From NCBI GenBank assembly GCA_963814275.1, contig CAWFCE010000001.1:131307-195306 (forward strand): a DNA stretch of 64,000 bases. Direction: 5' to 3'. Positions 1,543 through 42,760 of this stretch are shown here, piece by piece; the stretch's first letter is position 1; each line of letters starts with the position of its first letter. The notes beneath the pieces are model-generated. The model was not told the origin of the DNA. It did not search any database and saw only the letters and a program-made list of their open reading frames with translations. The stretch is from Candidatus Parcubacteria bacterium (lineage in GTDB: Bacteria; Patescibacteriota; Patescibacteriia; Patescibacteriales; UBA12075). A program made the translations under genes and the position numbers.

Positions 1543-2328
1543 ATGAAAAAATATCTTAAGGTTTGGAAGCAGCTTAGTGTTTGCGCAATCGGATCATATC
1601 TATCCAACCGGATCGATTCTTTGAGCTATTTTTTGGGTAAGCTGGTCCGCTTCGGTTTTTTCCTGCTTTTGATCGTTTCCATCTTCCGCCATACCGATAA
1701 TTTGGCCGGCTACGGAAAATATGCAGTGATCTTATTCTTCCTGACATTCAACCTGATGGATGTCCTGCCCCAGGCTTTCTTCCGCGGCATATACCTTTTT
1801 CGCGACGATGTCCGGAAAGGCAACTTCGATTTTATCCTGGCTAAGCCGGTCAGTCCGCTTTTTTATTCCCTGACCAGGCTGACCGATCTTCTTGATATGC
1901 TTTTTCTCTTACCCACCATTGCCCTGATAGTTTACACTGTTTTGAAGCTTCCCGATGCCGTAACAGCCGTGAACATCGCGTCTTATGTGGGCTTTGTCCT
2001 GATCGGCATGCTGATTCTCGTCGGTATCCATATTTTGTCCGCCGTGATCACTGTCTGGACGCTGGAAAGCGAAAATTTCGTCTGGTTCTACCGCGAATCC
2101 ATGACCATCGGCCGCTTTCCCCCGGAAATTTACAGCCCGGTTGTCCAGGTTATTTTTACTTATTTCATGCCCGTAATCATAATTATCGCTTTTCCGGCCA
2201 AGGCTCTGCTGGGAATGTTGTCCGCGACAAATATCATACTGGCATTAATTTACAGTATTTTATTTTTTTCAACCGCGGTATTTCTGTGGCGTTTAAGCCT
2301 CAAGCATTACCAAAGCGCCTCGAGCTAG
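1543..2328 (+). CDS. ABC-2 family transporter permease (pair 1, subunit B)
   Basis: 261-aa polytopic membrane protein, paralogous in layout to the 3969 and 6525 ORFs, directly downstream of subunit A. Confidence 0.75.
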   Translation: MKKYLKVWKQLSVCAIGSYLSNRIDSLSYFLGKLVRFGFFLLLIVSIFRHTDNLAGYGKYAVILFFLTFNLMDVLPQAFFRGIYLFRDDVRKGNFDFILAKPVSPLFYSLTRLTDLLDMLFLLPTIALIVYTVLKLPDAVTAVNIASYVGFVLIGMLILVGIHILSAVITVWTLESENFVWFYRESMTIGRFPPEIYSPVVQVIFTYFMPVIIIIAFPAKALLGMLSATNIILALIYSILFFSTAVFLWRLSLKHYQSASS

Positions 2329-2330
2329 GA

Positions 2331-2431
2331 TTCCACTTGGCTTTACCTGCCTGCCGGCAGGCAGGGCCGAAGGTTCGCCAGGCTTCCACTTGGCTTCAGC
2401 CGAAGGTTCGCCAGGCTTTAGCCTGGTACAT
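2331..2431 (+). repeat. Family-2 palindromic repeat cluster, left-end (LE) type
   Basis: ttccacttggcttta, the 20-bp perfect palindrome cctgcctgccggcaggcagg (2346-2365), gccgaaggttcgccaggc units, and terminal hairpin ccaggc-ttta-gcctgg (2411-2426). Confidence 0.9.
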
Positions 2432-2463
2432 AACAAAGCGCAACAAAATTAAAATCGCAAAAA

Positions 2464-3057
2464 ATGCCCCATTACGCCCATTTGAAAAACGGCCCCGCAT
2501 ATTGGCCCGATGACGCCATTTATTTTCTGACCGACTCAACATTCATGCATTTCCCGTATTTTGATTCGCCCGAACAAAAGCAGATCGTTTTAAACCAGAT
2601 CAAAAAGATAAATAAATTATTAAGTATCCCTTTTTCCGCATTTAGTATTTCGAAAAATCATTATCATTTAAAATTTTATTTGGACAAGGGAGTTAAGCTC
2701 AATAAAGTAAAACAATATTTGCGAGGTGGAATTTCTTATGAATACAATAAAAGATTCGAAAAACCCTACCGGGAAATGTGGCAAACCCTGAAAACAGTAA
2801 TTGTCACGTCAGAAAGCATGGATTGGAAAGTGGCCGGATATATAATCGGTAATTTGATAAAACATCGGGAAGTCAGCACCTTTAACGACTTGATGGAAAA
2901 TGAGTATTCAAGTTTTTGGTATATGGCCGGTAAATACGGTTATGAGGAAATGGTAAGCTTGGTCAGGGAGATAATCGAAATAGATGAAAGCAGGGAAGGT
3001 GAGGTGGATTTACAGAAATTGAGCGGTTTAAATGTAAAGAAGTTTGTGAATAGATAG
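2464..3057 (+). CDS. Divergent RAYT-like / IS200-type HUH (Y1) transposase-family protein, copy 1
   Basis: Motifs occur in RAYT order: AIYFLT strand, HUH-like NHYHLKF, MWQ (RAYT has WQxRF), YIIGNLIKH (RAYT has YIxxNPVKH, the catalytic Tyr region) and EYSSF. The gene is bracketed by inverted repeat clusters. Confidence 0.6.
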   Translation: MPHYAHLKNGPAYWPDDAIYFLTDSTFMHFPYFDSPEQKQIVLNQIKKINKLLSIPFSAFSISKNHYHLKFYLDKGVKLNKVKQYLRGGISYEYNKRFEKPYREMWQTLKTVIVTSESMDWKVAGYIIGNLIKHREVSTFNDLMENEYSSFWYMAGKYGYEEMVSLVREIIEIDESREGEVDLQKLSGLNVKKFVNR

Positions 3058-3082
3058 TTATTTTTTGGGTGAATTTTACGGT

Positions 3083-3163
3083 GTATGAGGCTAAAGCCTC
3101 AACGACCTTCGGCCCTGCCTGCCGGCAGGCAGGTAAAGCCAAGTGGAAGCCTCAACGACCTTT
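3083..3163 (-). repeat. Family-2 palindromic repeat cluster, right-end (RE) type (inverted relative to LE)
   Basis: Hairpin tgaggc-taaa-gcctca (3086-3101), then accttcggc, palindrome 3114-3133, then taaagccaagtggaagcctcaacgaccttt. This is the reverse complement of the LE modules. Confidence 0.9.
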
Positions 3164-3213
3164 GACTAATGCGGAACGGAAGATATCCGATAATAACCTT
3201 TTGACTTTATCAC

Positions 3214-4011
3214 ATGAAAAAGTACTGGACCATTATCAACAATGAATTCCAGCGGCAGTTTACCTACCGGGCGAATATCCTGGCTTTTGTGCTGGGTAAT
3301 TTCGTCAATTTAATATCCTTGGTAGTGGTTTGGTACGCGGCTTACCGAAGCGTTGAATCGGTCGGCGGTTACAGCTTCCGGGAGATGATGACCTATGTCG
3401 TGGTTGGCTGGGTGATCTTGTTCATGACCAACAACTACGGCTTCGAATCGATCGTTTCCCGCGACATTCTGCTCGGCACGATGTCCAATTTCCTGACCAA
3501 GCCGATCTCTTATCTGCGCTACACCTTTGCCCGCTCCATCGGCCGGGTAATGGTGGCCTTTATGGTTGTGATCCTGCAGAGCGTTGCCTATATTTTATTA
3601 TTTCACGGTTTTCTCGTATTTCGCTTGGATTTTTTCGGCTCGATCGTGTTCTGCCTGATGCTGGCCATGAGCTTTGTCATCAAAATATTTTTCGCTATCC
3701 TGGTCGGCTTGATCGCTTTCTGGACGATCGATGTTTCGGGCGTGCAGACGGCCGCCAATGTCATCATCCGCTTTTTTTCCGGCGCCTACTTCCCGGTCAA
3801 CCTGCTGCCCGCCGCTTTCGTCAATGTCAGCCTGGCCCTGCCCTTCGTCTATACCCATTATGTCCCGACCCAGTTCTTTATCGGTAAGATCGATCTGCGC
3901 GGGGCGTTATACGGGGTCTTGGTGCAGTTTATCTGGCTAATCATTTTATATATCATCGTGAAATACATATGGAAAATCGGCCTCAAGAAATACGAAAGCG
4001 TCGGTATCTGA
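3214..4011 (+). CDS. ABC-2 family transporter permease (pair 2, subunit A, copy 1)
   Basis: 265-aa polytopic membrane protein with FSGAYFP motif and C-terminal GLKKYESVGI. Its translation is identical to the 5770 ORF. Confidence 0.8.
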   Translation: MKKYWTIINNEFQRQFTYRANILAFVLGNFVNLISLVVVWYAAYRSVESVGGYSFREMMTYVVVGWVILFMTNNYGFESIVSRDILLGTMSNFLTKPISYLRYTFARSIGRVMVAFMVVILQSVAYILLFHGFLVFRLDFFGSIVFCLMLAMSFVIKIFFAILVGLIAFWTIDVSGVQTAANVIIRFFSGAYFPVNLLPAAFVNVSLALPFVYTHYVPTQFFIGKIDLRGALYGVLVQFIWLIILYIIVKYIWKIGLKKYESVGI

Positions 4012-4811
4012 CATTCGCGCGGAAGATCATCGCGGTTAGCCGCAACGAATGGCTGAAAGCTTTTTTTTACCGGGTAAGTATCTTGTCCTTTCGCCTCGGG
4101 GAATTCGTGCAAGTGGCTTTCAATGTAATAATATGGACGGCCATCTTCCGCTCCGCGGCCGAAGTGGGCGGTTATGATTATCCGCAAATGATGACCTATA
4201 TCGTGGTCGGTTATTTGTTTGCCCTTTTGAGCGACAACTATGTCTATGAAGCCAATATATCACGCTTGATCCACGATGGGCGCCTTTCCAATATCATGGT
4301 AAAACCGATATCATTTCTCGGCTATATCGTGTCCGCCGCCCTGGGCCGGGTGAGCGTAACGATCTTTTCCTCGTCCTTTATGCTGCTGCCGATCATAATA
4401 TTTTGGAACCGGCTGTTGCCGCCCAGCGGTTTCTTGCCCGTCTTGATCATTCTGGCCATTTTGATCATCAGTTATTTCGTCAAACTCTTCCTGTCGATCC
4501 TAATCGGCATGATCGCGTTCTGGTTCATCCAGGTTTCCGGCTTCCAGTCGTCTTTCCGGCAACTGGAAAAAATGCTTTCCGGCTCTTATTTCCCGATCAA
4601 CATCCTGCCGTTAATTTACGTTAAGATCAGCCTGTTTTTCCCCTTTGCCTATACGTTTTTCGTGCCAATGCAGATCTATCTGGGCAAGATGGGTATTTTG
4701 GAAGGATTTATAAGCATCGGTGTAATATCCGCCTGGCTTCTTGCGCTTTATGGTATAATTAAATTGGTTTATAAAATGGGTTTAAAGAAATACGAAAGCG
4801 TCGGTATTTGA
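3969..4811 (+). CDS. ABC-2 family transporter permease (pair 2, subunit B, copy 1)
   Basis: 280-aa polytopic membrane protein. ATG 3969 is the only ATG/GTG/TTG upstream of the conserved RRYL N-terminus, which gives a 43-nt overlap with the upstream gene and suggests translational coupling. Confidence 0.75.
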   Translation: MENRPQEIRKRRYLTFARKIIAVSRNEWLKAFFYRVSILSFRLGEFVQVAFNVIIWTAIFRSAAEVGGYDYPQMMTYIVVGYLFALLSDNYVYEANISRLIHDGRLSNIMVKPISFLGYIVSAALGRVSVTIFSSSFMLLPIIIFWNRLLPPSGFLPVLIILAILIISYFVKLFLSILIGMIAFWFIQVSGFQSSFRQLEKMLSGSYFPINILPLIYVKISLFFPFAYTFFVPMQIYLGKMGILEGFISIGVISAWLLALYGIIKLVYKMGLKKYESVGI

Positions 4812-4830
4812 TAAATAATAAATGCATCCT

Positions 4831-4987
4831 CCACTTGGCTTTAGCGTTCGTCCGGGCTTACGCCAAAGACCGAAGGTTCGCCAGGCTTCCACTTGGCTTT
4901 ACCTGCCTGCCGGCAGGCAGGGCCGAAGGTTCGCCAGGCTTCCACTTGGCTTCAGCCGAAGGTTCGCCAGGCTTTAGCCTGGTACAT
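4831..4987 (+). repeat. Family-2 repeat cluster, extended LE type (copy-1/copy-2 junction)
   Basis: Three ccacttggctt units, palindrome 4902-4921, terminal hairpin ccaggctttagcctgg. The last 101 nt equal 2331-2431. Confidence 0.9.
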
Positions 4988-5019
4988 AATAAAGCGCAAC
5001 AAAATTAAAATCTCAAAAA

Positions 5020-5613
5020 ATGCCCCATTACGCCCCTTTGAAAAACAGCCCCACATATTGGCCCGATGACGCCATCTATTTTCTGACCGACTCAACATTC
5101 ATGCATTTCCCGTATTTTGATTCGTCCGAGCAAAAGCAAATCGTTTTAAACCAGATCAAAAAGATAAATAAATTATTGAGTATCCCTTTTTCCGCATATA
5201 GTATTTCGAAAAATCATTATCATTTAAAATTTTATTTGGATAAGGGAGTTAAGCTCAATAAAGTAAAACAATATTTGCGGGGTGGAATTTCTTATGAATA
5301 CAATAAAAGATTCGAAAAACCCTACCGGGAAATGTGGCAAACCCTGAAAACAGTAATTGTCACGTCAGAAAGCATGGATTGGAAAGTGGCCGGATATATA
5401 ATCGGTAATTTGATAAAACATCGGGAAGTCAGCACCTTTAACGACTTGATGGAAAATGAGTATTCAAGTTTTTGGTATATGGCCGGTAAATACGGTTATG
5501 AGGAAATGGTAAGCTTGGTCAGGGAGATAATCGAAATAGATGAAAGCAGGGAAGGTGAGGTGGATTTACAGAAATTGAGCGGTTTAAATGTAAAGAAGTT
5601 TGTGAATAGATAG
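5020..5613 (+). CDS. Divergent RAYT-like HUH protein, copy 2
   Basis: 197 aa. It differs from copy 1 at five residues (H6P, G10S, A12T, P35S, F59Y) plus several synonymous changes, all in the 5' third. Confidence 0.6.
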   Translation: MPHYAPLKNSPTYWPDDAIYFLTDSTFMHFPYFDSSEQKQIVLNQIKKINKLLSIPFSAYSISKNHYHLKFYLDKGVKLNKVKQYLRGGISYEYNKRFEKPYREMWQTLKTVIVTSESMDWKVAGYIIGNLIKHREVSTFNDLMENEYSSFWYMAGKYGYEEMVSLVREIIEIDESREGEVDLQKLSGLNVKKFVNR

Positions 5614-5638
5614 TTAATTTTTGGGTAAATTTTACGGT

Positions 5639-5719
5639 GTATGAGGCTAAAGCCTCAACGACCTTCGGCCCTGCCTGCCGGCAGGCAGGTAAAGCCAAGT
5701 GGAAGCCTCAACGACCTTT
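5639..5719 (-). repeat. Family-2 repeat cluster, RE type (copy 2)
   Basis: Same sequence as 3083-3163, shifted by 2,556 nt. Palindrome at 5670-5689. Confidence 0.9.
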
Positions 5720-5769
5720 GGCTAATGCGGAACGGAAGATATCCGATAATAACCTTTTGACTTTATCAC

Positions 5770-6567
5770 ATGAAAAAGTACTGGACCATTATCAACAATG
5801 AATTCCAGCGGCAGTTTACCTACCGGGCGAATATCCTGGCTTTTGTGCTGGGTAATTTCGTCAATTTAATATCCTTGGTAGTGGTTTGGTACGCGGCTTA
5901 CCGAAGCGTTGAATCGGTCGGCGGTTACAGCTTCCGGGAGATGATGACCTATGTCGTGGTTGGCTGGGTGATCTTGTTCATGACCAACAACTACGGCTTC
6001 GAATCGATCGTTTCCCGCGACATTCTGCTCGGCACGATGTCCAATTTCCTGACCAAGCCGATCTCTTACCTGCGCTACACCTTTGCCCGCTCCATCGGCC
6101 GGGTAATGGTGGCCTTTATGGTTGTGATCCTGCAGAGCGTTGCCTATATTTTATTATTTCACGGTTTTCTCGTATTTCGCTTGGATTTTTTCGGCTCGAT
6201 CGTGTTCTGCCTGATGCTGGCCATGAGCTTTGTCATCAAAATATTTTTCGCTATCCTGGTCGGCTTGATCGCTTTCTGGACGATCGATGTTTCGGGCGTG
6301 CAGACGGCCGCCAATGTCATCATCCGCTTTTTTTCCGGCGCCTACTTCCCGGTCAACCTGCTGCCCGCCGCTTTCGTCAATGTCAGCCTGGCCCTGCCCT
6401 TCGTCTATACCCATTATGTCCCGACCCAGTTCTTTATCGGTAAGATCGATCTGCGCGGGGCGTTATACGGGGTCTTGGTGCAGTTTATCTGGCTAATCAT
6501 ATTATATATCATCGTGAAATACATATGGAAAATCGGCCTCAAGAAATACGAAAGCGTCGGTATCTGA
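5770..6567 (+). CDS. ABC-2 family transporter permease (pair 2, subunit A, copy 2)
   Basis: Protein identical to the 3214..4011 product. Confidence 0.8.
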   Translation: MKKYWTIINNEFQRQFTYRANILAFVLGNFVNLISLVVVWYAAYRSVESVGGYSFREMMTYVVVGWVILFMTNNYGFESIVSRDILLGTMSNFLTKPISYLRYTFARSIGRVMVAFMVVILQSVAYILLFHGFLVFRLDFFGSIVFCLMLAMSFVIKIFFAILVGLIAFWTIDVSGVQTAANVIIRFFSGAYFPVNLLPAAFVNVSLALPFVYTHYVPTQFFIGKIDLRGALYGVLVQFIWLIILYIIVKYIWKIGLKKYESVGI

Positions 6568-7367
6568 CATTCGCGCGGAAGATCATCGCGGTTAGCCGCA
6601 ACGAATGGCTGAAAGCTTTTTTTTACCGGGTAAGTATCTTGTCCTTTCGCCTCGGGGAATTCGTGCAAGTGGCTTTCAATGTAATAATATGGACGGCCAT
6701 CTTCCGCTCCGCGGCCGAAGTGGGCGGTTATGATTATCCGCAAATGATGACCTATATCGTGGTCGGTTATTTGTTTGCCCTTTTGAGCGACAACTATGTC
6801 TATGAAGCCAATATATCACGCTTGATCCACGATGGGCGCCTTTCCAATATCATGGTAAAACCGATATCATTTCTCGGCTATATCGTGTCCGCCGCCCTGG
6901 GCCGGGTGAGCGTAACGATCTTTTCCTCGTCCTTTATGCTGCTGCCGATCATAATATTTTGGAACCGGCTGTTGCCGCCCAGCGGTTTCTTGCCCGTCTT
7001 GATCATTCTGGCCATTTTGATCATCAGTTATTTTGTCAAACTCTTCCTGTCGATCCTGATCGGCATGATCGCGTTCTGGTTCATCCAGGTTTCCGGCTTC
7101 CAGTCGTCTTTCCGGCAACTGGAAAAAATGCTTTCCGGCTCTTATTTCCCGATCAACATCCTGCCGTTAATTTACGTTAAGATCAGCCTGTTTTTCCCCT
7201 TTGCCTATACGTTTTTCGTGCCAATGCAGATCTATCTGGGCAAAATGAGTATTGGGGAGGGTTTTGTGAGTATCGGTGTAATATCCGCCTGGCTTCTTGC
7301 GCTTTATGGTATAATTAAATTGGTTTATAAAATGGGTTTAAAGAAATACGAAAGCGTCGGTATTTGA
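6525..7367 (+). CDS. ABC-2 family transporter permease (pair 2, subunit B, copy 2)
   Basis: 280 aa. It differs from copy 1 only near the C-terminus (KMSIGEGFVSIGV versus KMGILEGFISIGV). Confidence 0.75.
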   Translation: MENRPQEIRKRRYLTFARKIIAVSRNEWLKAFFYRVSILSFRLGEFVQVAFNVIIWTAIFRSAAEVGGYDYPQMMTYIVVGYLFALLSDNYVYEANISRLIHDGRLSNIMVKPISFLGYIVSAALGRVSVTIFSSSFMLLPIIIFWNRLLPPSGFLPVLIILAILIISYFVKLFLSILIGMIAFWFIQVSGFQSSFRQLEKMLSGSYFPINILPLIYVKISLFFPFAYTFFVPMQIYLGKMSIGEGFVSIGVISAWLLALYGIIKLVYKMGLKKYESVGI

Positions 7368-7386
7368 TAAATAATAAATGCATCCT

Positions 7387-7539
7387 CCACTTGGCTTTAG
7401 CGTTCGTCCGGGCTTACGCCAAAGACCGAAGGTTCGCCAGGCTTCCACTTGGCTTTACCTGCCCGCCGGCAGGCAGGTAAAGCCAAGTGGAAGCCTCAAC
7501 GACCTTCGGCCCTGCCTGCCGGCAGGCAGGTAAAGCCAA
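7387..7539. repeat. Family-2 repeat cluster: LE joined directly to RE with no gene between them (empty element)
   Basis: 7443-7492 is a near-perfect 50-bp palindrome (ttccacttggctttacctgcccgcc|ggcaggcaggtaaagccaagtggaa). An RE module with a second palindrome follows (7511-7530). Confidence 0.9.
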
Positions 7540-7584
7540 TCGAACGATGTCGTATTTTTGTAGTAATTATATTATCATAATAAT

Positions 7585-8620: not shown

Positions 8621-9715
8621 ATGGAAAATTTGCTCAAAAATCTGGAAAATTTGCGTGAACGGGTCAATGAAACCCGGAAGCTTTTGGATATTGACCGAAA
8701 AAAATCAAAGGTGCACGAGTTGCGATCCGAGATGAACCAGCCGGGCTTTTGGGATAACCAGGGAAAAGCGGTGGATATAAGCAAGCGGGCGGAGGATCTG
8801 GAAAAAGAAGTTAACGAGTGGCAGGATTTTTCCCGGGAAATACGCGATCTGGAGGAATTGGTGGCCGAAGCGATCAAGGAAAATGACGCTTCAATCGAAG
8901 CCGAAGCCAACGAACAATACGCCAAACTTCTCAAAAAATACGAAAAACTGGAATTTTATATATTATTCTCCGGCAAATACGACGAGAACGGCGCGATCCT
9001 TTCGATCCATGCCGGTACCGGCGGGGTTGACGCCCAGGATTGGTCGCAGCTGCTTGAACGGATGTTCCTTCGTTTTGCGGAAAAGATGAATTGGCGGACA
9101 GAGATCGTCGACCGGACGATCGGTAATGAAGCCGGCATCAAGAGCATGACCATGCGCATTCCGGGTCGCTACGCATACGGGTACCTGAAAAGCGAATCCG
9201 GCGTGCATCGGCTGGTCCGGATCAGCCCTTTTGACGCGGAGGCGATGCGCCATACTTCATTCGCCCTGGTCGAAGTGATCCCCGATCTGGACGATGCGGC
9301 GGAGATCGAGCTTAACGAGGCTGATCTGCGTATAGACGTTTTCCGCTCCTCCGGACCGGGCGGCCAGGGGGTGAATACGACTGATTCGGCCGTCCGGATC
9401 AAGCATCTGCCGACCGGCATCATAGTCACCTGCCAGAACGAGCGCAGCCAGCACCAGAACAAGGAAACCGCCATGAAGATCCTCAAGGCCAAACTGTTCA
9501 GGCTGGAAGAAGAAAAACGCGAAGCCGAAGAATTGAAACTGCGCGGGGAGGCGCAGAAGGCCGAATGGGGCAAACAGATCCGCTCCTATGTGCTGCAGCC
9601 TTACAAAATGGTCAAGGATCACCGGACTGAACATGAAACGCAGGATGTGGACGGAGTTTTGGACGGCGACCTGACAGAATTTATGGAATCATATTTGAAG
9701 TGGATAAAGAAATAA
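8621..9715 (+). CDS. prfB: Peptide chain release factor 2
   Basis: SPF tripeptide (RISPFD), GGQ motif (SGPGGQGVNTTDSAVRIKHLPTG), 364 aa. The ORF is uninterrupted, so no +1 frameshift site is present. Confidence 0.9.
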   Translation: MENLLKNLENLRERVNETRKLLDIDRKKSKVHELRSEMNQPGFWDNQGKAVDISKRAEDLEKEVNEWQDFSREIRDLEELVAEAIKENDASIEAEANEQYAKLLKKYEKLEFYILFSGKYDENGAILSIHAGTGGVDAQDWSQLLERMFLRFAEKMNWRTEIVDRTIGNEAGIKSMTMRIPGRYAYGYLKSESGVHRLVRISPFDAEAMRHTSFALVEVIPDLDDAAEIELNEADLRIDVFRSSGPGGQGVNTTDSAVRIKHLPTGIIVTCQNERSQHQNKETAMKILKAKLFRLEEEKREAEELKLRGEAQKAEWGKQIRSYVLQPYKMVKDHRTEHETQDVDGVLDGDLTEFMESYLKWIKK

Positions 9716-9815
9716 TTTTCGATTCAATAATTATTTAATTGCATTTGTTAATAATTTCATTCGGTTTTGTCCACCCGCTTTCATGTAGGCATATATTATA
9801 ATAAAAAAATATATT

Positions 9816-9848
9816 AAAACACCTTTCCTCCAAGAGGTGTTTTTATTT
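9816..9848 (+). terminator. Rho-independent terminator candidate after prfB
   Basis: aaaacacct (9816-9824) pairs with aggtgtttt (9835-9843) and runs into a T-run. It abuts the RAYT start codon. Confidence 0.55.
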
Positions 9849-10517
9849 ATGGAAATTCATGAACTAAAACATAAACGTAAATCATACAGAATGCGGGATT
9901 ACGATTATAGTTCGCCTGGTTATTATTTTGTAACAATTTGCGTCAAGAACAAAACTTGCTGTTTGGGAAAAATCGTCGCGGGAGAAGATCGGTTTATTAC
10001 CGGCGAAATCAAGTTGTCGGAATTAGGCCGAATCGTAAATGATGTTTGGCTGTCTATTCCGGAACATCATAAAGTTGTTGAATTGGCCGAGTTTGTAATT
10101 ATGCCGAATCATATCCACGGGATAATTGGCATTAATGATATGGATTTCCGTAGGGGCATTGCGCGCAATACCCCAGAACGTGGCGATCCGCAAGCACTTT
10201 GCGCCAACCACCGCCGGGGCGTAGCACGCTACGCCCCTACGAATATGGATAAACGATGTTTTATTAAACAACCATCCGGATCCTTATCAACGATAATCGG
10301 TTCATTTAAATCTGAGGAATCAAGACGAATTCATGTGCTTCCAAAATGGAAAAATTTTAGCTGGCAGAGAAATTATTATGAACATATAATCGATAGTGAA
10401 AAATCATTGGAGTACATTCGATATTATATCGAAAATAATCCGATCAAGTGGTATGAAGATATCAATAATCCTAAAAATCGATTTACCGAATATCAGATAA
10501 AATATTATTACAAATAA
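9849..10517 (+). CDS. REP-associated tyrosine transposase (RAYT, IS200-like HUH/Y1 family)
   Basis: YYFVTICV strand, HUH motif MPNHIHGII, SWQRNYYEHII, and catalytic-Tyr region YIENNPIKW. The ORF track starts at GTG 9837, but ATG 9849 is better placed behind aagagg. It contains an in-frame 93-nt REP doublet. Confidence 0.85.
   Translation: MEIHELKHKRKSYRMRDYDYSSPGYYFVTICVKNKTCCLGKIVAGEDRFITGEIKLSELGRIVNDVWLSIPEHHKVVELAEFVIMPNHIHGIIGINDMDFRRGIARNTPERGDPQALCANHRRGVARYAPTNMDKRCFIKQPSGSLSTIIGSFKSEESRRIHVLPKWKNFSWQRNYYEHIIDSEKSLEYIRYYIENNPIKWYEDINNPKNRFTEYQIKYYYK
10149..10241 (+). repeat. Family-1 REP doublet (REPIN-like), copy inside the RAYT coding sequence
   Basis: GTAG plus hairpin ggggcattgcgcgcaatacccc at the left and ggggcgtagcacgctacgcccc plus CTAC at the right. 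It is 93 nt (31 codons) and matches 10534-10626 at 92 of 93 positions. Confidence 0.95.
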
Positions 10518-10533
10518 TTATTCCCCAGGTAAT

Positions 10534-10626
10534 CGTAGGGGCATTGCGCGCAATGCCCCAGAACGTGGCGATCCGCAAGCACTTTGCGCCAACCACCGCC
10601 GGGGCGTAGCACGCTACGCCCCTACA
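10534..10626 (+). repeat. Family-1 REP doublet (REPIN-like), copy 17 nt downstream of the RAYT stop
   Basis: cgtaggggcattgcgcgcaatgcccca...ggggcgtagcacgctacgcccctaca. Two GC-rich hairpins sit in inverted orientation, each headed by GTAG. Confidence 0.95.
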
Positions 10627-10639
10627 CCGTTATAATATT

Positions 10640-12208
10640 ATGTCGAAATCGAAAATATTCTTTTATTCCTGCTTGGCCTTTATCGCCGGTATTGGCTCCG
10701 CTTCTTTTTTGCCGGAATCGGTTTTGTCTTATGAATTGCATTGGTTCGTTGCTGGAATATTGTTTTTAACCAGCGCGGCTATATTTCACAGACAAAGGAA
10801 AAACAAAGATAAGTCGGAAAATGGATTGTCTTTGGCGCCGTTATTGTTGGTCTTGGCTTTTTTCTTTTTCGGCCTGTGGCGCTATGCGTTAAGCATGCCG
10901 GTAAATTCGTCCGGGAATATTCAATACTACAACGGCTATTTTGCGGACGTTACCGGTTTGATCACGGGTGAACCGGATGTCCGCGAAGCAAGCCAGCGGC
11001 TGGAGATTACGGTGAAATCGATTGAGATAAAAGGGAAAACGGATAAGGCGCAAAAAGCGGACGGAAAACTATTGGTCGCCACAGCCCTTTATCCGCAGTA
11101 CAAATACGGCGATGTTATCAGGACAGAATGCGAACTCATGGCGCCCGAACCATTCGATGATTTTGCCTATGACCGCTATCTGGCGCGCTATAACGTTTAT
11201 GCGGTCTGTTATTATCCCAAGGTTGTTGAAACGGTCGGATCCGGTCAGGGCAATCGCTTGGTTGCCGGAGTTTTGGCGATAAAGAATAAAATGAAGCATA
11301 TTCTCAATAGGGGGCTGGACGAATTACCGGCGTCATTGGCGCGGGCAATGCTTCTGGGCGATAAGCGCGGCTTGCCTGAAGATGTCCGTGAAGCGTTTTC
11401 GTGCGCGGGTTTGAGCCATTTGGCGGCCATTTCCGGAATGCATATCAGTATTATCTCGGCAATGGTGATGACCGGGCTCATCTATCTGGGGTTCAGACGC
11501 CGGCAGGCATATTACCTGGCGACGCTTTTTCTATTGTTCTATATCATATTGATTGGTTTGCCGGCTAGCGCCATCAGGGCCGGTATTATGGGGTTTTTGG
11601 TTTTGACCGCGATGGAGCTCGGCCGATTGAACCGGGCCGTTAATTCACTGGTGCTGGCTGCGGCCGTGATGCTCTTAATGAATCCGCGGCTTCTGCGGGA
11701 CGATATCGGCTTCCAGCTTTCTTTTGCCGCGGTTGCCGGCCTGGTTTTTTTCTATCCCCTGGGCTCTGCCCTCTATCGGCGGCTGGAGGACAGGTTTTCG
11801 ATTCCCACAGCCGGCGGCGGGGTCGCGGCGATACTGCTGGTAACCATATCCGCCCAATTAGCTACCTGGCCGCTTACCGCATATTATTTTTCTTCATTCA
11901 CCTGGGTGGCGCCCATGAGCAATCTCGTTGTCCTATGGGTATTGCCGTTCTTGTTCGTTTCCTTGGTCGGAGGCTTGGTCATTGCCTTCTTTCTGCCCGG
12001 CTTCGGTTATCTCGCTCTGCTTCCCGCCCGTTTGATTTTGGATTACATAATCGCTGTGGCGAGATACGCGGCCGCTTTTGCCGGGAATAACGAATACCGG
12101 ACCGGTTGGCTGTTTGTCGCCGTATATTACGCATTATTCGGGATTCTTTGGATATCAATGCCGATGTTAAAAAAAATTTTTCTTCGTAATCGCCTTTTTC
12201 CCGGTTAA
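10640..12208 (+). CDS. comEC: ComEC/Rec2-family DNA internalisation channel protein (no C-terminal metallo-beta-lactamase domain)
   Basis: Polytopic 522-aa protein with the competence-domain signature RAMLLGDKRGLPEDVREAFSCAGLSHLAAISGMHISII. It ends without an HxHxDH domain. Confidence 0.85.
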   Translation: MSKSKIFFYSCLAFIAGIGSASFLPESVLSYELHWFVAGILFLTSAAIFHRQRKNKDKSENGLSLAPLLLVLAFFFFGLWRYALSMPVNSSGNIQYYNGYFADVTGLITGEPDVREASQRLEITVKSIEIKGKTDKAQKADGKLLVATALYPQYKYGDVIRTECELMAPEPFDDFAYDRYLARYNVYAVCYYPKVVETVGSGQGNRLVAGVLAIKNKMKHILNRGLDELPASLARAMLLGDKRGLPEDVREAFSCAGLSHLAAISGMHISIISAMVMTGLIYLGFRRRQAYYLATLFLLFYIILIGLPASAIRAGIMGFLVLTAMELGRLNRAVNSLVLAAAVMLLMNPRLLRDDIGFQLSFAAVAGLVFFYPLGSALYRRLEDRFSIPTAGGGVAAILLVTISAQLATWPLTAYYFSSFTWVAPMSNLVVLWVLPFLFVSLVGGLVIAFFLPGFGYLALLPARLILDYIIAVARYAAAFAGNNEYRTGWLFVAVYYALFGILWISMPMLKKIFLRNRLFPG

Positions 12209-38188: not shown

Positions 38189-38203
38189 CGGTATTTTACT
38201 GCC

Positions 38204-38293
38204 CGTTGGGGCATTGCGCGCAATACCCCAACCGTGGCGGCGCCATCGGGCCGCATCAACCACGGCCGGGGCGTAGCACGCTACACCACTACG
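38204..38293 (+). repeat. Family-1 REP doublet, diverged copy
   Basis: cgttggggcattgcgcgcaataccccaa ... ggggcgtagcacgctacaccactacg. Both terminal hairpins are recognisable. The head is GTTG instead of GTAG, and the central ~35 nt is replaced. Confidence 0.85.
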
Positions 38294-38378
38294 ACATTAG
38301 GCTCAATAATTTTGAAAAATTTACTGATTATATAGATAATGATTTTTATAATCAGTCAAAATATGTTATAATATAATC

Positions 38379-42572: not shown

Positions 42573-42599
42573 CGTAGGGGCTCAGTATCCTGAGCCCTA
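42573..42599 (+). repeat. Possible single family-1-like REP (GTAG + hairpin)
   Basis: gtaggggctcag-tatc-ctgagccctag. The GTAGGGGC head is the same as family 1 but the stem sequence differs. Confidence 0.4.
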
Positions 42600-42760
42600 G
42601 TGCCAGCACGACCCAAGACGATTAAACTACGATAGGATTTAGAACCGCGTATTTAGCGTTAAAGGATATTAGCGTGCGGTATCCAGGTTGCCCAAACCCT
42701 GCGGACGGGACTATAAATTAAACCGGCAACCCTGCAGGATTGCCGCTGGATAAAATATGA

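What the first reader, a model, noticed from the sequence alone, without database searches (positions are those of the whole stretch)
10138..10250. A 93-nt REP doublet sits in frame inside its own RAYT gene, flanked by an 8-bp direct repeat
10149-10241 matches the REP doublet just downstream of the same gene (10534-10626) at 92 of 93 positions. The internal copy starts exactly on a codon boundary, is 31 codons long with no stop, and encodes RRGIARNTPERGDPQALCANHRRGVARYAPT. It lies between the HUH motif (HIHGII) and the helix that precedes the catalytic Tyr region. ATATGGAT occurs on both sides (10138-10145 and 10243-10250, 105 nt apart, also a multiple of 3). Removing one repeat plus the insert would restore ...GINDMDKRCF.... 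This looks like an insertion of the RAYT's own substrate into the RAYT coding sequence that preserved the frame. It could be self-targeting, a tolerated loop insertion, or a way of silencing or modulating the enzyme. Any mRNA would also carry two strong GC hairpins mid-gene.
Basis: seen in the sequence. Interest (0 to 1): 0.8.

Follow-up and report, generated by a model that had tools for sequence, protein, structure and literature searches.

The report
RAYT gene carrying its own REP
A domesticated transposase gene (RAYT/TnpAREP) in a Patescibacteria-like genome carries, in frame in a surface loop, a copy of the palindromic repeat pair that the enzyme acts on.

Summary
A 92-nt inverted REP dimer (10149-10240) lies in frame inside a RAYT gene (9849-10517). 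It is 91/92 identical to a dimer 16 nt past the stop codon and is bracketed by ATATGGAT repeats.

It is not a one-off. The protein has the motifs of TnpAREP subclass 2.4 (RAYT group 4): NHIH, WQ, YIENNP. Quentin et al. 2018 (PMC6006769) already reported in-frame REPs in that subclass, between the HuH and Tyr motifs.

- My survey agrees: 59-63 of 73 homologous genes from many phyla carry a GT[AG]G-footed hairpin at that site.
- All five distinct syntenic orthologues (prfB-RAYT-comEC) carry in-frame REP sequence at the same position. In the four of the window's cassette type it is a single 28-nt 'double-foot' REP.
- The site was therefore probably already occupied. The window's dimer looks like a local replacement or expansion, exchanged with the adjacent extragenic copy.
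- The 8-bp repeat is unusual (p about 0.005) and is not a family trait.
- AlphaFold puts the insert in a low-confidence loop, and the catalytic motifs are intact.

Extra leads:
- The central segment of the gene (REP plus the neighbouring αC helix) is swapped as a cassette between near-identical genes.
- An in-frame REP in the neighbouring comEC changes type along with that cassette.

Verdict: new member of a known kind, with modest interest.

The parts
9849..10517 (+). RAYT / TnpAREP gene (222 aa from ATG 9849), subclass 2.4 / group 4
   Evidence: Pfam Y1_Tnp 1.2e-8 on the C-terminal half only. NCBIfam REP_Tyr_transpos scores 48 bits, below its cutoff. The profile hits 4ER8 TnpAREP, and Foldseek hits IS608, ISDra2 and 4ER8. 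Motifs NHIH, WQ and YIENNP are present.
10110..10118 (+). HUH motif (H88-I-H90) on strand β3
   Evidence: H88 and H90 are invariant in the 41-sequence alignment. They align to E. coli PEHMHCI.
10138..10145 (+). Left copy of the 8-bp direct repeat ATATGGAT (probably native codons N-D-M-D)
   Evidence: Compare ATT AAC GAT GAT TAT in orthologue L001.
10149..10240 (+). In-frame inverted REP dimer (REPIN/BIME-like, GTAG feet outward), encoding residues 101-131
   Evidence: 91/92 identical to 10534-10625. No chance matches in shuffles. Only one of three frames is stop-free.
10150..10174 (+). REP1: GTAG foot plus hairpin GGGGCATTGCG/CGCAATACCCC, with a C·A mismatch from the A at 10170
   Evidence: DNA fold -4.8 kcal/mol, against -9.9 for the external copy. 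The same sequence sits in frame inside other RAYT genes in metagenomes.
10175..10215 (+). Spacer between the two REPs; it differs in the third genomic copy
10216..10240 (-). REP2, inverted: GTAGGGGCGTAGCGTGCTACGCCCC on the - strand. It encodes RGVARYAPT on the + strand.
   Evidence: DNA fold -10.5 kcal/mol, z = -4.4 to -4.6. The same peptide occurs in orthologues P0006, P0007 and P0011, where it is the only REP.
10242..10253 (+). 12 extra nt, AATATGGATAAA (NMDK), between the REP 3' foot and the conserved Arg codon. It contains the right copy of the 8-bp repeat (10243-10250).
   Evidence: In the type-A orthologues L001, L003, L088 and L090 the 3' foot CCCCTACG is followed directly by an Arg codon.
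10281..10334 (+). Codons of helix αC (α3), the helix that binds the REP hairpin in E. coli TnpAREP
   Evidence: AF2 helix 146-161. The role of α3 is taken from PMC8266576. This segment is swapped together with the REP in mosaic orthologues.
10362..10394 (+). WQRNYYEHIID: W/Q and neighbouring residues that contact the GTAG guide in E. coli TnpAREP. D182 replaces the usual Arg.
   Evidence: alignment. R occupies this position in 106 of 115 homologues and D occurs only here.
10425..10442 (+). Y motif YIENNP (catalytic Tyr193, by alignment to E. coli Y115)
   Evidence: The subclass 2.4 motif is YIxNNP.
10534..10625 (+). Extragenic REP dimer, 16 nt after the RAYT stop and 14 nt before the comEC start. 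It is the best-preserved copy.
38203..38294 (+). Third, diverged dimer of the same REP family (GTTG foot, different spacer); intergenic
   Evidence: Its hairpins are weak.
8621..9715 (+). prfB (RF2), the conserved upstream neighbour
   Evidence: Synteny prfB-RAYT-comEC in L001, L003, L086 and L090 (Pfam families or C-terminal RF2 sequence upstream). In L087 only RAYT-comEC is supported, and in L088 and L089 the neighbours are inferred from sequence alone. The closest named RF2 proteins are from Parcubacteria and Falkowbacteria, at 70-76% identity.
10640..12208 (+). comEC, the conserved downstream neighbour

Best explanation
**What it is.** The gene encodes a TnpAREP of subclass 2.4 (RAYT group 4), a single-copy, domesticated HUH/Y1 single-strand DNA transposase. 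It sits between prfB and comEC in a Patescibacteria-like genome.

**The family trait.** In this subclass the codons of the loop between strand β3 (HUH) and helix αC almost always hold one or more of the enzyme's own GTAG-footed REP hairpins, in frame.

**This copy.** The window holds the dimer version: two inverted REPs with a 41-nt spacer.

**Steps shown here.**
1. The dimer is a near-exact copy of the dimer just downstream of the gene.
2. Syntenic orthologues carry in-frame REP sequence at the same codon position, as a single 28-nt double-foot REP in those of the window's cassette type.
3. The encoded 31 residues lie in a low-confidence loop between well-predicted core elements.
4. The HUH, W/Q and Tyr motifs are intact.

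**Steps inferred.**
1. The site was already REP-occupied in the ancestor.
2. The present dimer arose by local exchange with the neighbouring copy. The route could be RAYT-catalysed single-strand cleavage and joining at the GTAG feet, or recombination/gene conversion. That event also left 12 extra nucleotides and the 8-bp duplication.
3. Selection on the enzyme then kept only a stop-free version whose length is a multiple of 3. One frame of three is open for this dimer. For REPs in general the GTAG foot reads as a TAG stop in one frame.
4. For the protein the segment is probably neutral padding.
5. At the DNA level it is a REP copy that cannot be lost without damaging the gene.
For: **Family assignment.**
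- Motifs NHIH, WQ and YIENNP match the published subclass 2.4 definition.
- The fold is Y1_Tnp: and Foldseek to 4ER8, IS608 and ISDra2 with E about 1e-5.

**Published precedent.** PMC6006769 states that subclass 2.4 tnpAREP genes have REPs inserted in frame between HuH and Y, in the β3/αC loop, modelled as a peripheral extension.

**Independent survey here.**
- 59 of 73 scorable homologues from genome contigs have a GT[AG]G-footed hairpin in the loop. Four more are false negatives of my script.
- 30 have a further copy in the locus, 27 of them within 1.2 kb.

**Syntenic orthologues.** L001, L003, L088 and L090 each carry one double-foot REP at the same site, with its 3' foot abutting a conserved Arg codon. 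L086, L087 and L089 carry REPs of another type at the same site, as one and a half REPs or a dimer.

**Local copying.**
- The internal and downstream dimers are 91/92 identical, while the third copy has a different spacer.
- The same arrangement recurs elsewhere. L081 has an internal 113-nt dimer 111/113 identical to a copy 418 nt upstream. L059 has 65/69.

**In-situ REP replacement does happen in this clade.** The comEC genes of L001 and L087 carry an in-frame REP at the same codon, of different type.

**Loop placement.** pLDDT is 40-53 for residues ~97-143 and >90 for the core. Removing 105 nt in silico makes the Pfam and NCBIfam alignments contiguous across HUH.
Against: - The 8-bp flanking repeat (p about 0.0045) and the 12 extra nt after the 3' foot are what a fresh insertion with target duplication would leave. 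Simple in-situ replacement does not predict them.
- No relative closer than 59% identity exists in the databases, so the ancestral state of this lineage is inferred, not observed.
- The window protein alone has Asp in place of the Arg that contacts the GTAG guide in E. coli, so full activity is not assured.
- The internal REP1 hairpin is weakened by a mismatch.
- Only three copies of the REP family are visible in 64 kb. Genome-wide copy number is unknown.
- No direct evidence shows that the RAYT catalysed the event.
Confidence: 0.75

Rival explanations
1. De novo self-insertion. A REP-free RAYT gene (…GINDMDKRCF…) was recently hit by a 97-nt REP dimer copied from just downstream. The event created an 8-bp target-site duplication and happened to preserve the frame.
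For: - The ATATGGAT repeat has p about 0.0045 in shuffles and is the longest of 52 loci.
- The 12 nt AATATGGATAAA are extra relative to all type-A orthologues.
- Precise removal restores an open frame and a contiguous domain match.
- Identity to the neighbouring copy is 91/92.
Against: - All five distinct syntenic orthologue genes already hold REP sequence at this site, as do most family members.
- HUH/Y1 transposases of the IS200/IS605 type do not make target duplications (established knowledge).
- The other two copies of the element lack flanking repeats.
- With 52 loci inspected, one 8-nt repeat is only mildly surprising.
Confidence: 0.2
2. The in-gene REP is the heritable master copy, physically linked to its recognition module. 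Under this reading the REP inside the ORF is ancestral and travels with the gene. It seeds or homogenises the extragenic REPs. Because it abuts the codons of the REP-binding helix αC, REP type and protein specificity are inherited and exchanged as one cassette. This does not exclude the best explanation.
For: **Mosaic genes.**
- P0002 vs P0010: N-terminal segment 78%, αC segment 21%, C-terminal segment 100% identity.
- P0002 vs P0009: 87 / 26 / 93.
- P0006 vs P0012: 78 / 29 / 95.
- Each swap carries a different REP type.

**Statistical and other support.**
- A partial Mantel test shows REP distance tracking the αC segment with flanks controlled (r = 0.28, p = 0.0005). The reverse test gives r = 0.07, p = 0.06.
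- The comEC in-frame REP at an orthologous codon differs between L001 and L087. In each genome it resembles the resident in-gene REP: lower stem shared in L001, central core in L087.
- The same REP read in two frames (RGTACRAPT and VGARHAVPL) goes with the same αC type.
- An exact search for REP1 finds it inside RAYT genes in 7 of 14 metagenome loci.
- L003 has only the in-gene copy in 20 kb.
- α3 (αC) contacts the REP stem in E. coli (PMC8266576).
Against: - The correlation could come from physical adjacency and shared descent alone.
- L089 has a type-A REP upstream of a type-B cassette gene.
- The direction of copying cannot be read from the sequence.
- Variable copy number, two frames and dimers alongside single REPs all show turnover rather than stasis.
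- No biochemical data exist for subclass 2.4.
Confidence: 0.3
3. Regulatory hairpin. The REPs inside the mRNA or the non-template DNA strand throttle translation or transcription of the RAYT. Alternatively they let the protein bind its own gene or message (autoregulation).
For: - REP2 and the external REP1 fold strongly (-10 kcal/mol, z about -4).
- Perfect 13-bp palindromes are kept inside coding sequence in many lineages. Protein-level selection alone would not keep them.
- A terminator directly precedes the ATG, which suggests low expression.
Against: - Ongoing REP replacement explains the perfect palindromes equally well.
- The internal REP1 here is weakened.
- There is no Rfam match.
- The whole-element fold is not better than shuffles (z = -1.5).
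- No expression data are available.
Confidence: 0.1
4. Gene decay or silencing. The insertion, together with the R-to-D change at a GTAG-contact residue, marks a RAYT that is no longer functional.
For: - The Asp at the position of E. coli R104 is unique among 115 homologues.
- The REP family is low in copy number and partly degenerate in the window.
- The relative L107 lacks the gene altogether.
Against: - The ORF is intact. All 19 invariant columns of the alignment are conserved, including HUH, W172, Q173 and N197, and the catalytic Tyr is present.
- The core is confidently folded.
- In-frame REPs are the norm in apparently functional family members.
Confidence: 0.07

Closest known systems
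TnpAREP subclass 2.4 REPtrons (Quentin, Siguier, Chandler & Fichant 2018, BMC Genomics 19:475), equal to RAYT group 4 of Bertels et al. 2017
   Same: - HuH NH[IFV]H, WQ and YIxNNP motifs.
- Long or 'double-foot' GT[AG]G REPs.
- REPs flanking the gene and also inserted in frame between HuH and Y, in the β3/αC loop.
- Variable loop length with short repeats.
- Low REP copy number.
   Different: - The host is a Patescibacteria-like lineage. The paper stresses Cyanobacteria and Bacteroidetes 'and various phyla'.
- The occupant here is a complete inverted dimer with an 8-bp flanking repeat.
- Syntenic orthologues allow a site-by-site comparison.
- Cassette mosaicism and REP-type switching at an orthologous comEC site do not appear in the passages of that paper I read.
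E. coli TnpAREP with REP/BIME (PDB 4ER8; RAYT group 2 / subclass 2.2)
   Same: - HUH/Y1 fold (Foldseek E = 1.5e-5, rmsd 4.0 Å).
- W94/Q95, E100/H101, Y115 and N119 equivalents are present.
- GTAG-footed hairpin substrate.
- Gene flanked by its REPs.
   Different: - The E. coli gene holds no REP.
- E. coli REPs have a bulged stem, whereas these are perfect palindromes.
- The window protein has Asp at the R104 position and lacks the C-terminal tail contacts.
REPINs and their RAYTs in Pseudomonas (Bertels & Rainey 2011)
   Same: - Two inverted REPs form the mobile unit.
- One RAYT per REPIN family.
- The RAYT is flanked by REPINs and inherited vertically.
   Different: - Pseudomonas REPINs are extragenic and number in the hundreds.
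- Here the copy number is low and one dimer lies inside the RAYT ORF.
In-frame intragenic REPs and Rickettsia palindromic elements (Di Nocera et al. 2013, PMC3733652; RPEs of Ogata et al.)
   Same: - Palindromic repeats, single or dimeric, inserted in frame in functional genes.
- They encode 10-30 extra residues, presumably in loops.
- An in-frame REP in comEC is seen here too, in L001 and L087.
   Different: Those host genes are unrelated to the repeat's own mobilising enzyme. Here the host gene is the cognate RAYT and the site is conserved across the family.
IS200/IS605 TnpA (IS608, ISDra2)
   Same: - Same fold and HUH/Tyr chemistry.
- Hairpin plus guide-tetranucleotide recognition on single-stranded DNA.
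- No target duplication.
   Different: - Those are autonomous insertion sequences, with the hairpins at the element ends outside the ORF.
- They are multicopy and not syntenic.

Membership tests
TnpAREP subclass 2.4 / RAYT group 4 | HuH motif NH[IFV]H | tested here: met
   NHIH at residues 87-90. Definition from Table 1 of PMC6006769.
TnpAREP subclass 2.4 / RAYT group 4 | W motif 'WQ' and Y motif 'YIxNNP' | tested here: met
   W172-Q173 and YIENNP at 193-198. 69 of 120 homologues share YIxNNP.
TnpAREP subclass 2.4 / RAYT group 4 | Y1_Tnp (HUH/Tyr) fold | tested here: met
   Pfam PF01797, 35.5 bits against a cutoff of 23. The profile hits 4ER8. The AF2 model matches IS608, ISDra2 and 4ER8.
TnpAREP subclass 2.4 / RAYT group 4 | Variable insertion between β3 and αC that contains REP sequences in frame | tested here: met
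   Residues 101-131 form a REP dimer. The HuH-to-W distance ranges from 39 to 162 aa among homologues.
TnpAREP subclass 2.4 / RAYT group 4 | Cognate REPs are long perfect palindromes with a GT[AG]G foot (or double foot) and flank the gene | tested here: met
   GTAGGGGC feet and 9-bp stems (11-nt palindromic arms). An extragenic dimer lies 16 nt after the stop codon.
TnpAREP subclass 2.4 / RAYT group 4 | 8-aa insertion at the end of αB | not tested
   The window and its close orthologues have an extra ~7 residues after 'GKIVAG' relative to most homologues. I did not map this onto αB.
NCBIfam NF047646 REP-associated tyrosine transposase (equivalog) | Whole-protein score at or above the 80-bit cutoff | tested here: not met
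   48.3 bits with the insert and 52.2 bits without it. The model covers only part of the protein, so this name cannot be assigned by that HMM.
REP dimer / REPIN / BIME | Two REPs (foot tetranucleotide plus palindrome) in inverted orientation | tested here: met
   REP1 is on the + strand at 10150-10174 and REP2 on the - strand at 10216-10240, with GTAG feet outward.
REP dimer / REPIN / BIME | Dispersed, multi-copy family in the same genome | tested here: inconclusive
   Three copies in the 64-kb window. The rest of the 457-kb contig and the genome were not available.
REP dimer / REPIN / BIME | Mobilised by the cognate RAYT | not testable with these tools
   This needs a cleavage/strand-transfer assay or population data.
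MITE-type insertion with target-site duplication | Each copy is flanked by its own direct repeat of fixed length | tested here: not met
   Only the internal copy has an 8-nt repeat. The downstream copy has 5 nt (ATTAT) and the third copy 4 nt, both at chance level. Across 52 loci the mode is 4 nt.

The most novel reading that the evidence does not exclude
The in-frame REP may be more than a passenger. It may be the protected master copy of the repeat family, kept next to the codons of the REP-binding helix αC. REP sequence and enzyme specificity would then form one exchangeable cassette. When the cassette is swapped by recombination between related genomes, the genome's other REPs are rewritten to the new type. 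The evidence here is the mosaic genes, the REP-αC partial correlation, and the comEC in-frame REP that differs between L001 and L087 in step with the RAYT cassette. This would be a built-in mechanism for co-evolution of a domesticated transposase and its repeats.
Probability: 0.25. Interest if true: 0.65.

Novelty: new member of a known kind. Interest (0 to 1): 0.3.

Why it matters
As it stands, this is one more example of a feature described in 2018, in a lineage (Patescibacteria-like) where it had not been singled out. It does not change how RAYTs are understood.

Its value is as a clean case. The gene is syntenic in several relatives, so single-REP, dimer and RAYT-less states of one locus can be compared side by side.

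The side observations could make an open question testable, namely how a domesticated transposase and its repeat family stay matched over long periods. Those observations are:
- cassette swapping of the REP plus the αC helix;
- REP-type switching at an orthologous comEC codon;
- the same REP found mostly inside RAYT genes in metagenomes.

Tried and rejected
- **Source contig.** Looking up the window's own protein returned nothing and the cluster look-up gave no names. The rest of the genome and its REP census were therefore out of reach.
- **Insert-less allele.** A metagenome scan with a 26-nt upstream flank found nothing. The test for an allele without the insert could not be done.
- **Closer relatives.** No homologue is closer than 59% identity.
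- **Known RNA families.** An Rfam scan of 9000-11500 found no family.
- **Whole-dimer fold.** Folding the 111-nt region that contains the dimer gave z = -1.5, no better than shuffles. Only the individual REP hairpins are significant.
- **Promoters and terminators.** The scan showed no enrichment. The REP dimer is not a canonical terminator.
- **Target duplication as a family signature.** Flanking repeats in 51 other loci are at chance length, so I rejected this.
- **Script undercount.** My first foot-detection script missed hairpins whose stem runs through the foot (L009, L020, L021, L027). The 59/73 figure is therefore a lower bound.
- **Assembly artefact.** Rejected, because the same architecture is seen in independent assemblies from many phyla.
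- **Catalytic Tyr.** I first placed it in NYYEH. Alignment to 4ER8 puts it in YIENNP.
Full report
**1. The observation**

The region was read directly and recomputed.

- **The ORF.** An ORF on the + strand runs from ATG 9849 (or GTG 9837) to the stop at 10515-10517. The 222-aa product from ATG 9849 matches the family N-terminal consensus. The database entry P0001 (208 aa) starts 14 residues later.
- **The internal copy.** Positions 10149-10240 are 91/92 identical to 10534-10625.
- **The frame.** The internal copy begins at codon phase 0, spans 31 codons and has no stop. It encodes RRGIARNTPERGDPQALCANHRRGVARYAPT. This is the only stop-free frame of the three, in either orientation.
- **The direct repeat.** ATATGGAT occurs at 10138-10145 and 10243-10250.
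- **Chance.** Pattern searches with shuffled controls give no chance matches.
- **The third copy.** The same searches reveal a diverged dimer at about 38203-38294. Its REP ends are conserved and its spacer differs.
- **Anatomy of the element.** It is two inverted REPs. Each has a GTAG foot and a 9-bp GC-rich stem (an 11-nt palindromic arm), and the feet point outward. A 41-nt spacer separates them.
- **Hairpin strength.** As single-stranded DNA, REP2 and the external REP1 fold at about -10 kcal/mol (z about -4). The internal REP1 is weakened to -4.8 by the A at 10170.

**2. What the gene is**

- **Sequence evidence.**
  - Pfam Y1_Tnp matches only the C-terminal half of the protein.
  - NCBIfam's REP-associated tyrosine transposase model matches partially and below its cutoff.
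  - A profile of 41 homologues finds one solved structure by sequence, E. coli TnpAREP (4ER8). The alignment pairs PNHIHGI with PEHMHCI, WQRNYYEH with WQPRFWEH, and YIENNP with YIYINP.
  - That alignment places the catalytic Tyr at Y193.
- **Structure evidence.**
  - The AlphaFold model has mean pLDDT 79.9 and a core above 90.
  - Foldseek matches it to the IS608 and ISDra2 transposases and to 4ER8.
- **Where the insert falls.**
  - Residues ~97-143, which include the whole insert, have pLDDT 40-53. They lie between the HUH strand (88-95) and helix 146-161.
  - Deleting the 105 nt in silico makes both HMM alignments run continuously across HUH.
  - The insert therefore splits the domain at a loop.

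**3. It is a family trait, and it is published**

A literature search led to Quentin et al. 2018 (PMC6006769).

- Their TnpAREP subclass 2.4 is defined by NH[IFV]H, WQ and YIxNNP. It has long or 'double-foot' GT[AG]G REPs and corresponds to RAYT group 4 of Bertels et al. 2017.
- They describe it as unique in having REP sequences inserted within the tnpAREP genes, without disrupting the frame. The site is between HuH and Y in the β3/αC loop, which they model as a peripheral extension.
- The window protein has NHIH, WQ and YIENNP.
- Di Nocera et al. 2013 (PMC3733652) document in-frame REPs in many other genes.

I checked this independently.

- In the alignment of 40 homologues, most carry RGxxxxAPT or VGAxxxxPL at this site, and some carry tandem copies.
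- In 80 genome loci from many phyla, 59 of 73 scorable genes have a GT[AG]G-footed hairpin in the loop. Four more were missed by my script.
- 30 of the 73 have another copy in the locus, 27 of them within 1.2 kb.
- Both stop-free frames are used. The third frame would read the foot as a TAG stop.
- The arrangement 'internal dimer nearly identical to an adjacent external dimer' recurs in L081 (111/113) and L059 (65/69).

**4. The locus in relatives**

- **Synteny.** The closest RAYT homologues (50-59% identity) lie at the same locus.
  - In L001, L003, L086 and L090 an RF2 gene or its C-terminal sequence lies upstream and comEC downstream, usually overlapping comEC by 4 nt.
  - In L087 only the comEC neighbour is supported.
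  - For L088 and L089 the neighbours are inferred from sequence alone.
- **Host lineage.** RF2's nearest named relatives are from Parcubacteria and Falkowbacteria, at 70-76% identity. The host is therefore probably a Patescibacteria lineage.
- **Type-A orthologues.**
  - The four orthologues of the window's αC type (L001, L003, L088, L090) carry exactly one 28-nt double-foot REP, GTAGGGGC-N12-GCCCCTAC.
  - It is in frame at the same site, and its 3' foot is followed directly by a conserved Arg codon.
- **How the window differs.**
  - It holds a full dimer.
  - It has 12 extra nt (AATATGGATAAA) between the foot and that Arg codon. These 12 nt contain the second copy of the 8-bp repeat.
- **Origin of the two REPs.**
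  - REP2 encodes RGVARYAPT, the same peptide as the sole REP of P0006, P0007 and P0011.
  - REP1 is close to the REP of L003.
- **A RAYT-less relative.** L107 (RF2 75% identical) has prfB followed directly by comEC, with no RAYT and no REP.

**5. The 8-bp repeat**

- Shuffled flanks reach 8 nt in 0.45% of trials.
- Across 52 loci (the window plus 51 others) the modal flanking repeat is 4 nt. The window's 8 nt is the maximum, and one other locus has 7.
- The window's two other copies have 5 and 4 nt.
- The repeat is real and mildly improbable, and it is derived relative to the orthologues.
- It is not a general signature, and Y1 transposases are not known to make target duplications.
- I cannot decide between three origins:
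  1. a one-off duplication during replacement;
  2. excision followed by re-insertion;
  3. slippage promoted by the palindrome.

**6. Further evidence on how the system behaves**

- **Mosaic genes.**
  - The genes in L001 (P0002) and L086 (P0010) are identical over the first ~145 nt and nearly identical over the last ~190 nt.
  - They are very different in between. The divergent part runs from upstream of HUH, through the REP and αC, to just before WQRNYYEH.
  - L087 (P0009) follows L001 up to HUH and L086 afterwards.
- **Segment identities**, as N-terminal / αC / C-terminal:

| Pair | N-terminal | αC segment | C-terminal |
|---|---|---|---|
| P0002 vs P0010 | 78% | 21% | 100% |
| P0002 vs P0009 | 87% | 26% | 93% |
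| P0006 vs P0012 | 78% | 29% | 95% |

- **REP type travels with the segment.** Each central segment type goes with its own REP type.
- **Mantel test.**
  - Across 67 loci, a partial Mantel test links REP distance to the αC segment with the flanks controlled (r = 0.28, p = 0.0005).
  - The reverse test is weak (r = 0.07, p = 0.06).
  - In E. coli, αC (α3) and the region after it contact the REP stem (PMC8266576).
- **The comEC REP.**
  - The comEC genes of L001 and L087 carry an in-frame double-foot REP at the same codon, and its sequence differs between the two genomes.
  - In each genome it resembles the REP inside the resident RAYT gene. L001 shares the lower stem and L087 shares the central core.
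  - This shows that REPs can be replaced in situ.
- **Metagenome search.** An exact search for REP1 found 14 loci. In 7 of them (5 distinct sequences) the REP lies in frame inside another RAYT gene just after HUH.
- **Limits.** These points fit the idea that the in-gene REP and its recognition helix form a linked cassette. Adjacency and shared descent could also explain the correlation. L089 is an exception, with a type-A REP upstream of a type-B gene.

**7. Caveats on function**

- The window protein is the only one of 115 homologues with Asp at the position of E. coli R104, a residue that contacts the GTAG guide.
- The internal REP1 is slightly degenerate.
- A terminator-like hairpin sits directly before the ATG, and no convincing promoter follows it.
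- Activity and expression are therefore unproven.

**8. Verdict**

This is the enzyme's own REP, in frame, in a tolerated loop.
- It is the local form of a published, family-wide trait at a site that was very probably already occupied. It is not a singular self-insertion.
- Novelty: new member of a known kind. Interest: modest.
- The cassette idea is the most novel reading that the evidence does not exclude.

Noticed in passing
window 2324-7563, 25987, 57702, 59775, ~63854: There is a second, unrelated palindromic repeat family with no GTAG foot. Its core is CCTGCCTGCCGGCAGGCAGG, with ~30-nt conserved arms. Copies bracket a 2556-bp tandem duplication (2324-4879 / 4880-7435) that repeats three ORFs of 197, 265 and 280 aa.
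   Followed up: no
L001 9110-9137; L087 2341-2368 (comEC of syntenic relatives): A 28-nt double-foot REP lies in frame in comEC at the same codon in both genomes. Its sequence differs between them, and in each it resembles the REP inside that genome's RAYT gene. L001 has GTAGGGGCGATGCGGGTATCGCCCCTAC and L087 has GTAGGGGTAATTCATGAATTACCCCTAC. The window, L003, L090 and L107 have no REP there.
   Followed up: partly
L001 8121-8738 vs L086 511-1134 vs L087 1346-1969: The RAYT genes are mosaic. The 5' and 3' ends are identical or nearly so, while the central segment (REP, αC and the loop up to WQRNYYEH) is highly divergent. The 5' breakpoints differ and the 3' breakpoint is shared.
   Followed up: partly
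L091-L104 (metagenome hits to the window's REP1): In 7 of 14 loci the exact REP1 sequence sits in frame inside a different RAYT gene (…MPNHVHFVLIISCRRGIARNAPT…). L091 adds three tandem half-REP repeats (IGNAPT x3).
   Followed up: partly
L107 5096-5224: A relative with RF2 75% identical to the window's has prfB followed directly by comEC. There is only a plain terminator in between, with no RAYT and no REP. The RAYT is therefore patchy at this locus.
   Followed up: partly
window 10392-10394 (residue D182): Asp sits at the position of E. coli TnpAREP R104, which contacts the GTAG guide. This position is Arg in 106 of 115 homologues, and Asp occurs only in this protein.
   Followed up: partly
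window 42574-42600: A GTAG-footed hairpin with a different stem, GTAGGGGCTCAGTATCCTGAGCCCTAG. It may be a single REP of another type.
   Followed up: no
L089 140-165: A slightly degenerate type-A REP (GTAGGGGCATTGCGTGCAATGTCCTA) lies between prfB and a RAYT whose internal cassette is type B. The annotated start of P0008 probably begins inside this REP, and the likely true start is MSQGGQNYKRK.
   Followed up: no
window 9816-9848: A terminator-like hairpin with a T-run ends 5 nt before the RAYT ATG, and no convincing promoter lies between them. This suggests expression only by read-through from prfB.
   Followed up: no
window 9849-9890: The database protein for this gene (P0001, 208 aa) starts at M15. 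ATG 9849 restores the conserved N-terminal motif (HKRKSYRMRDYDY, compare the consensus HxRRSIRLKxYDY).
   Followed up: yes
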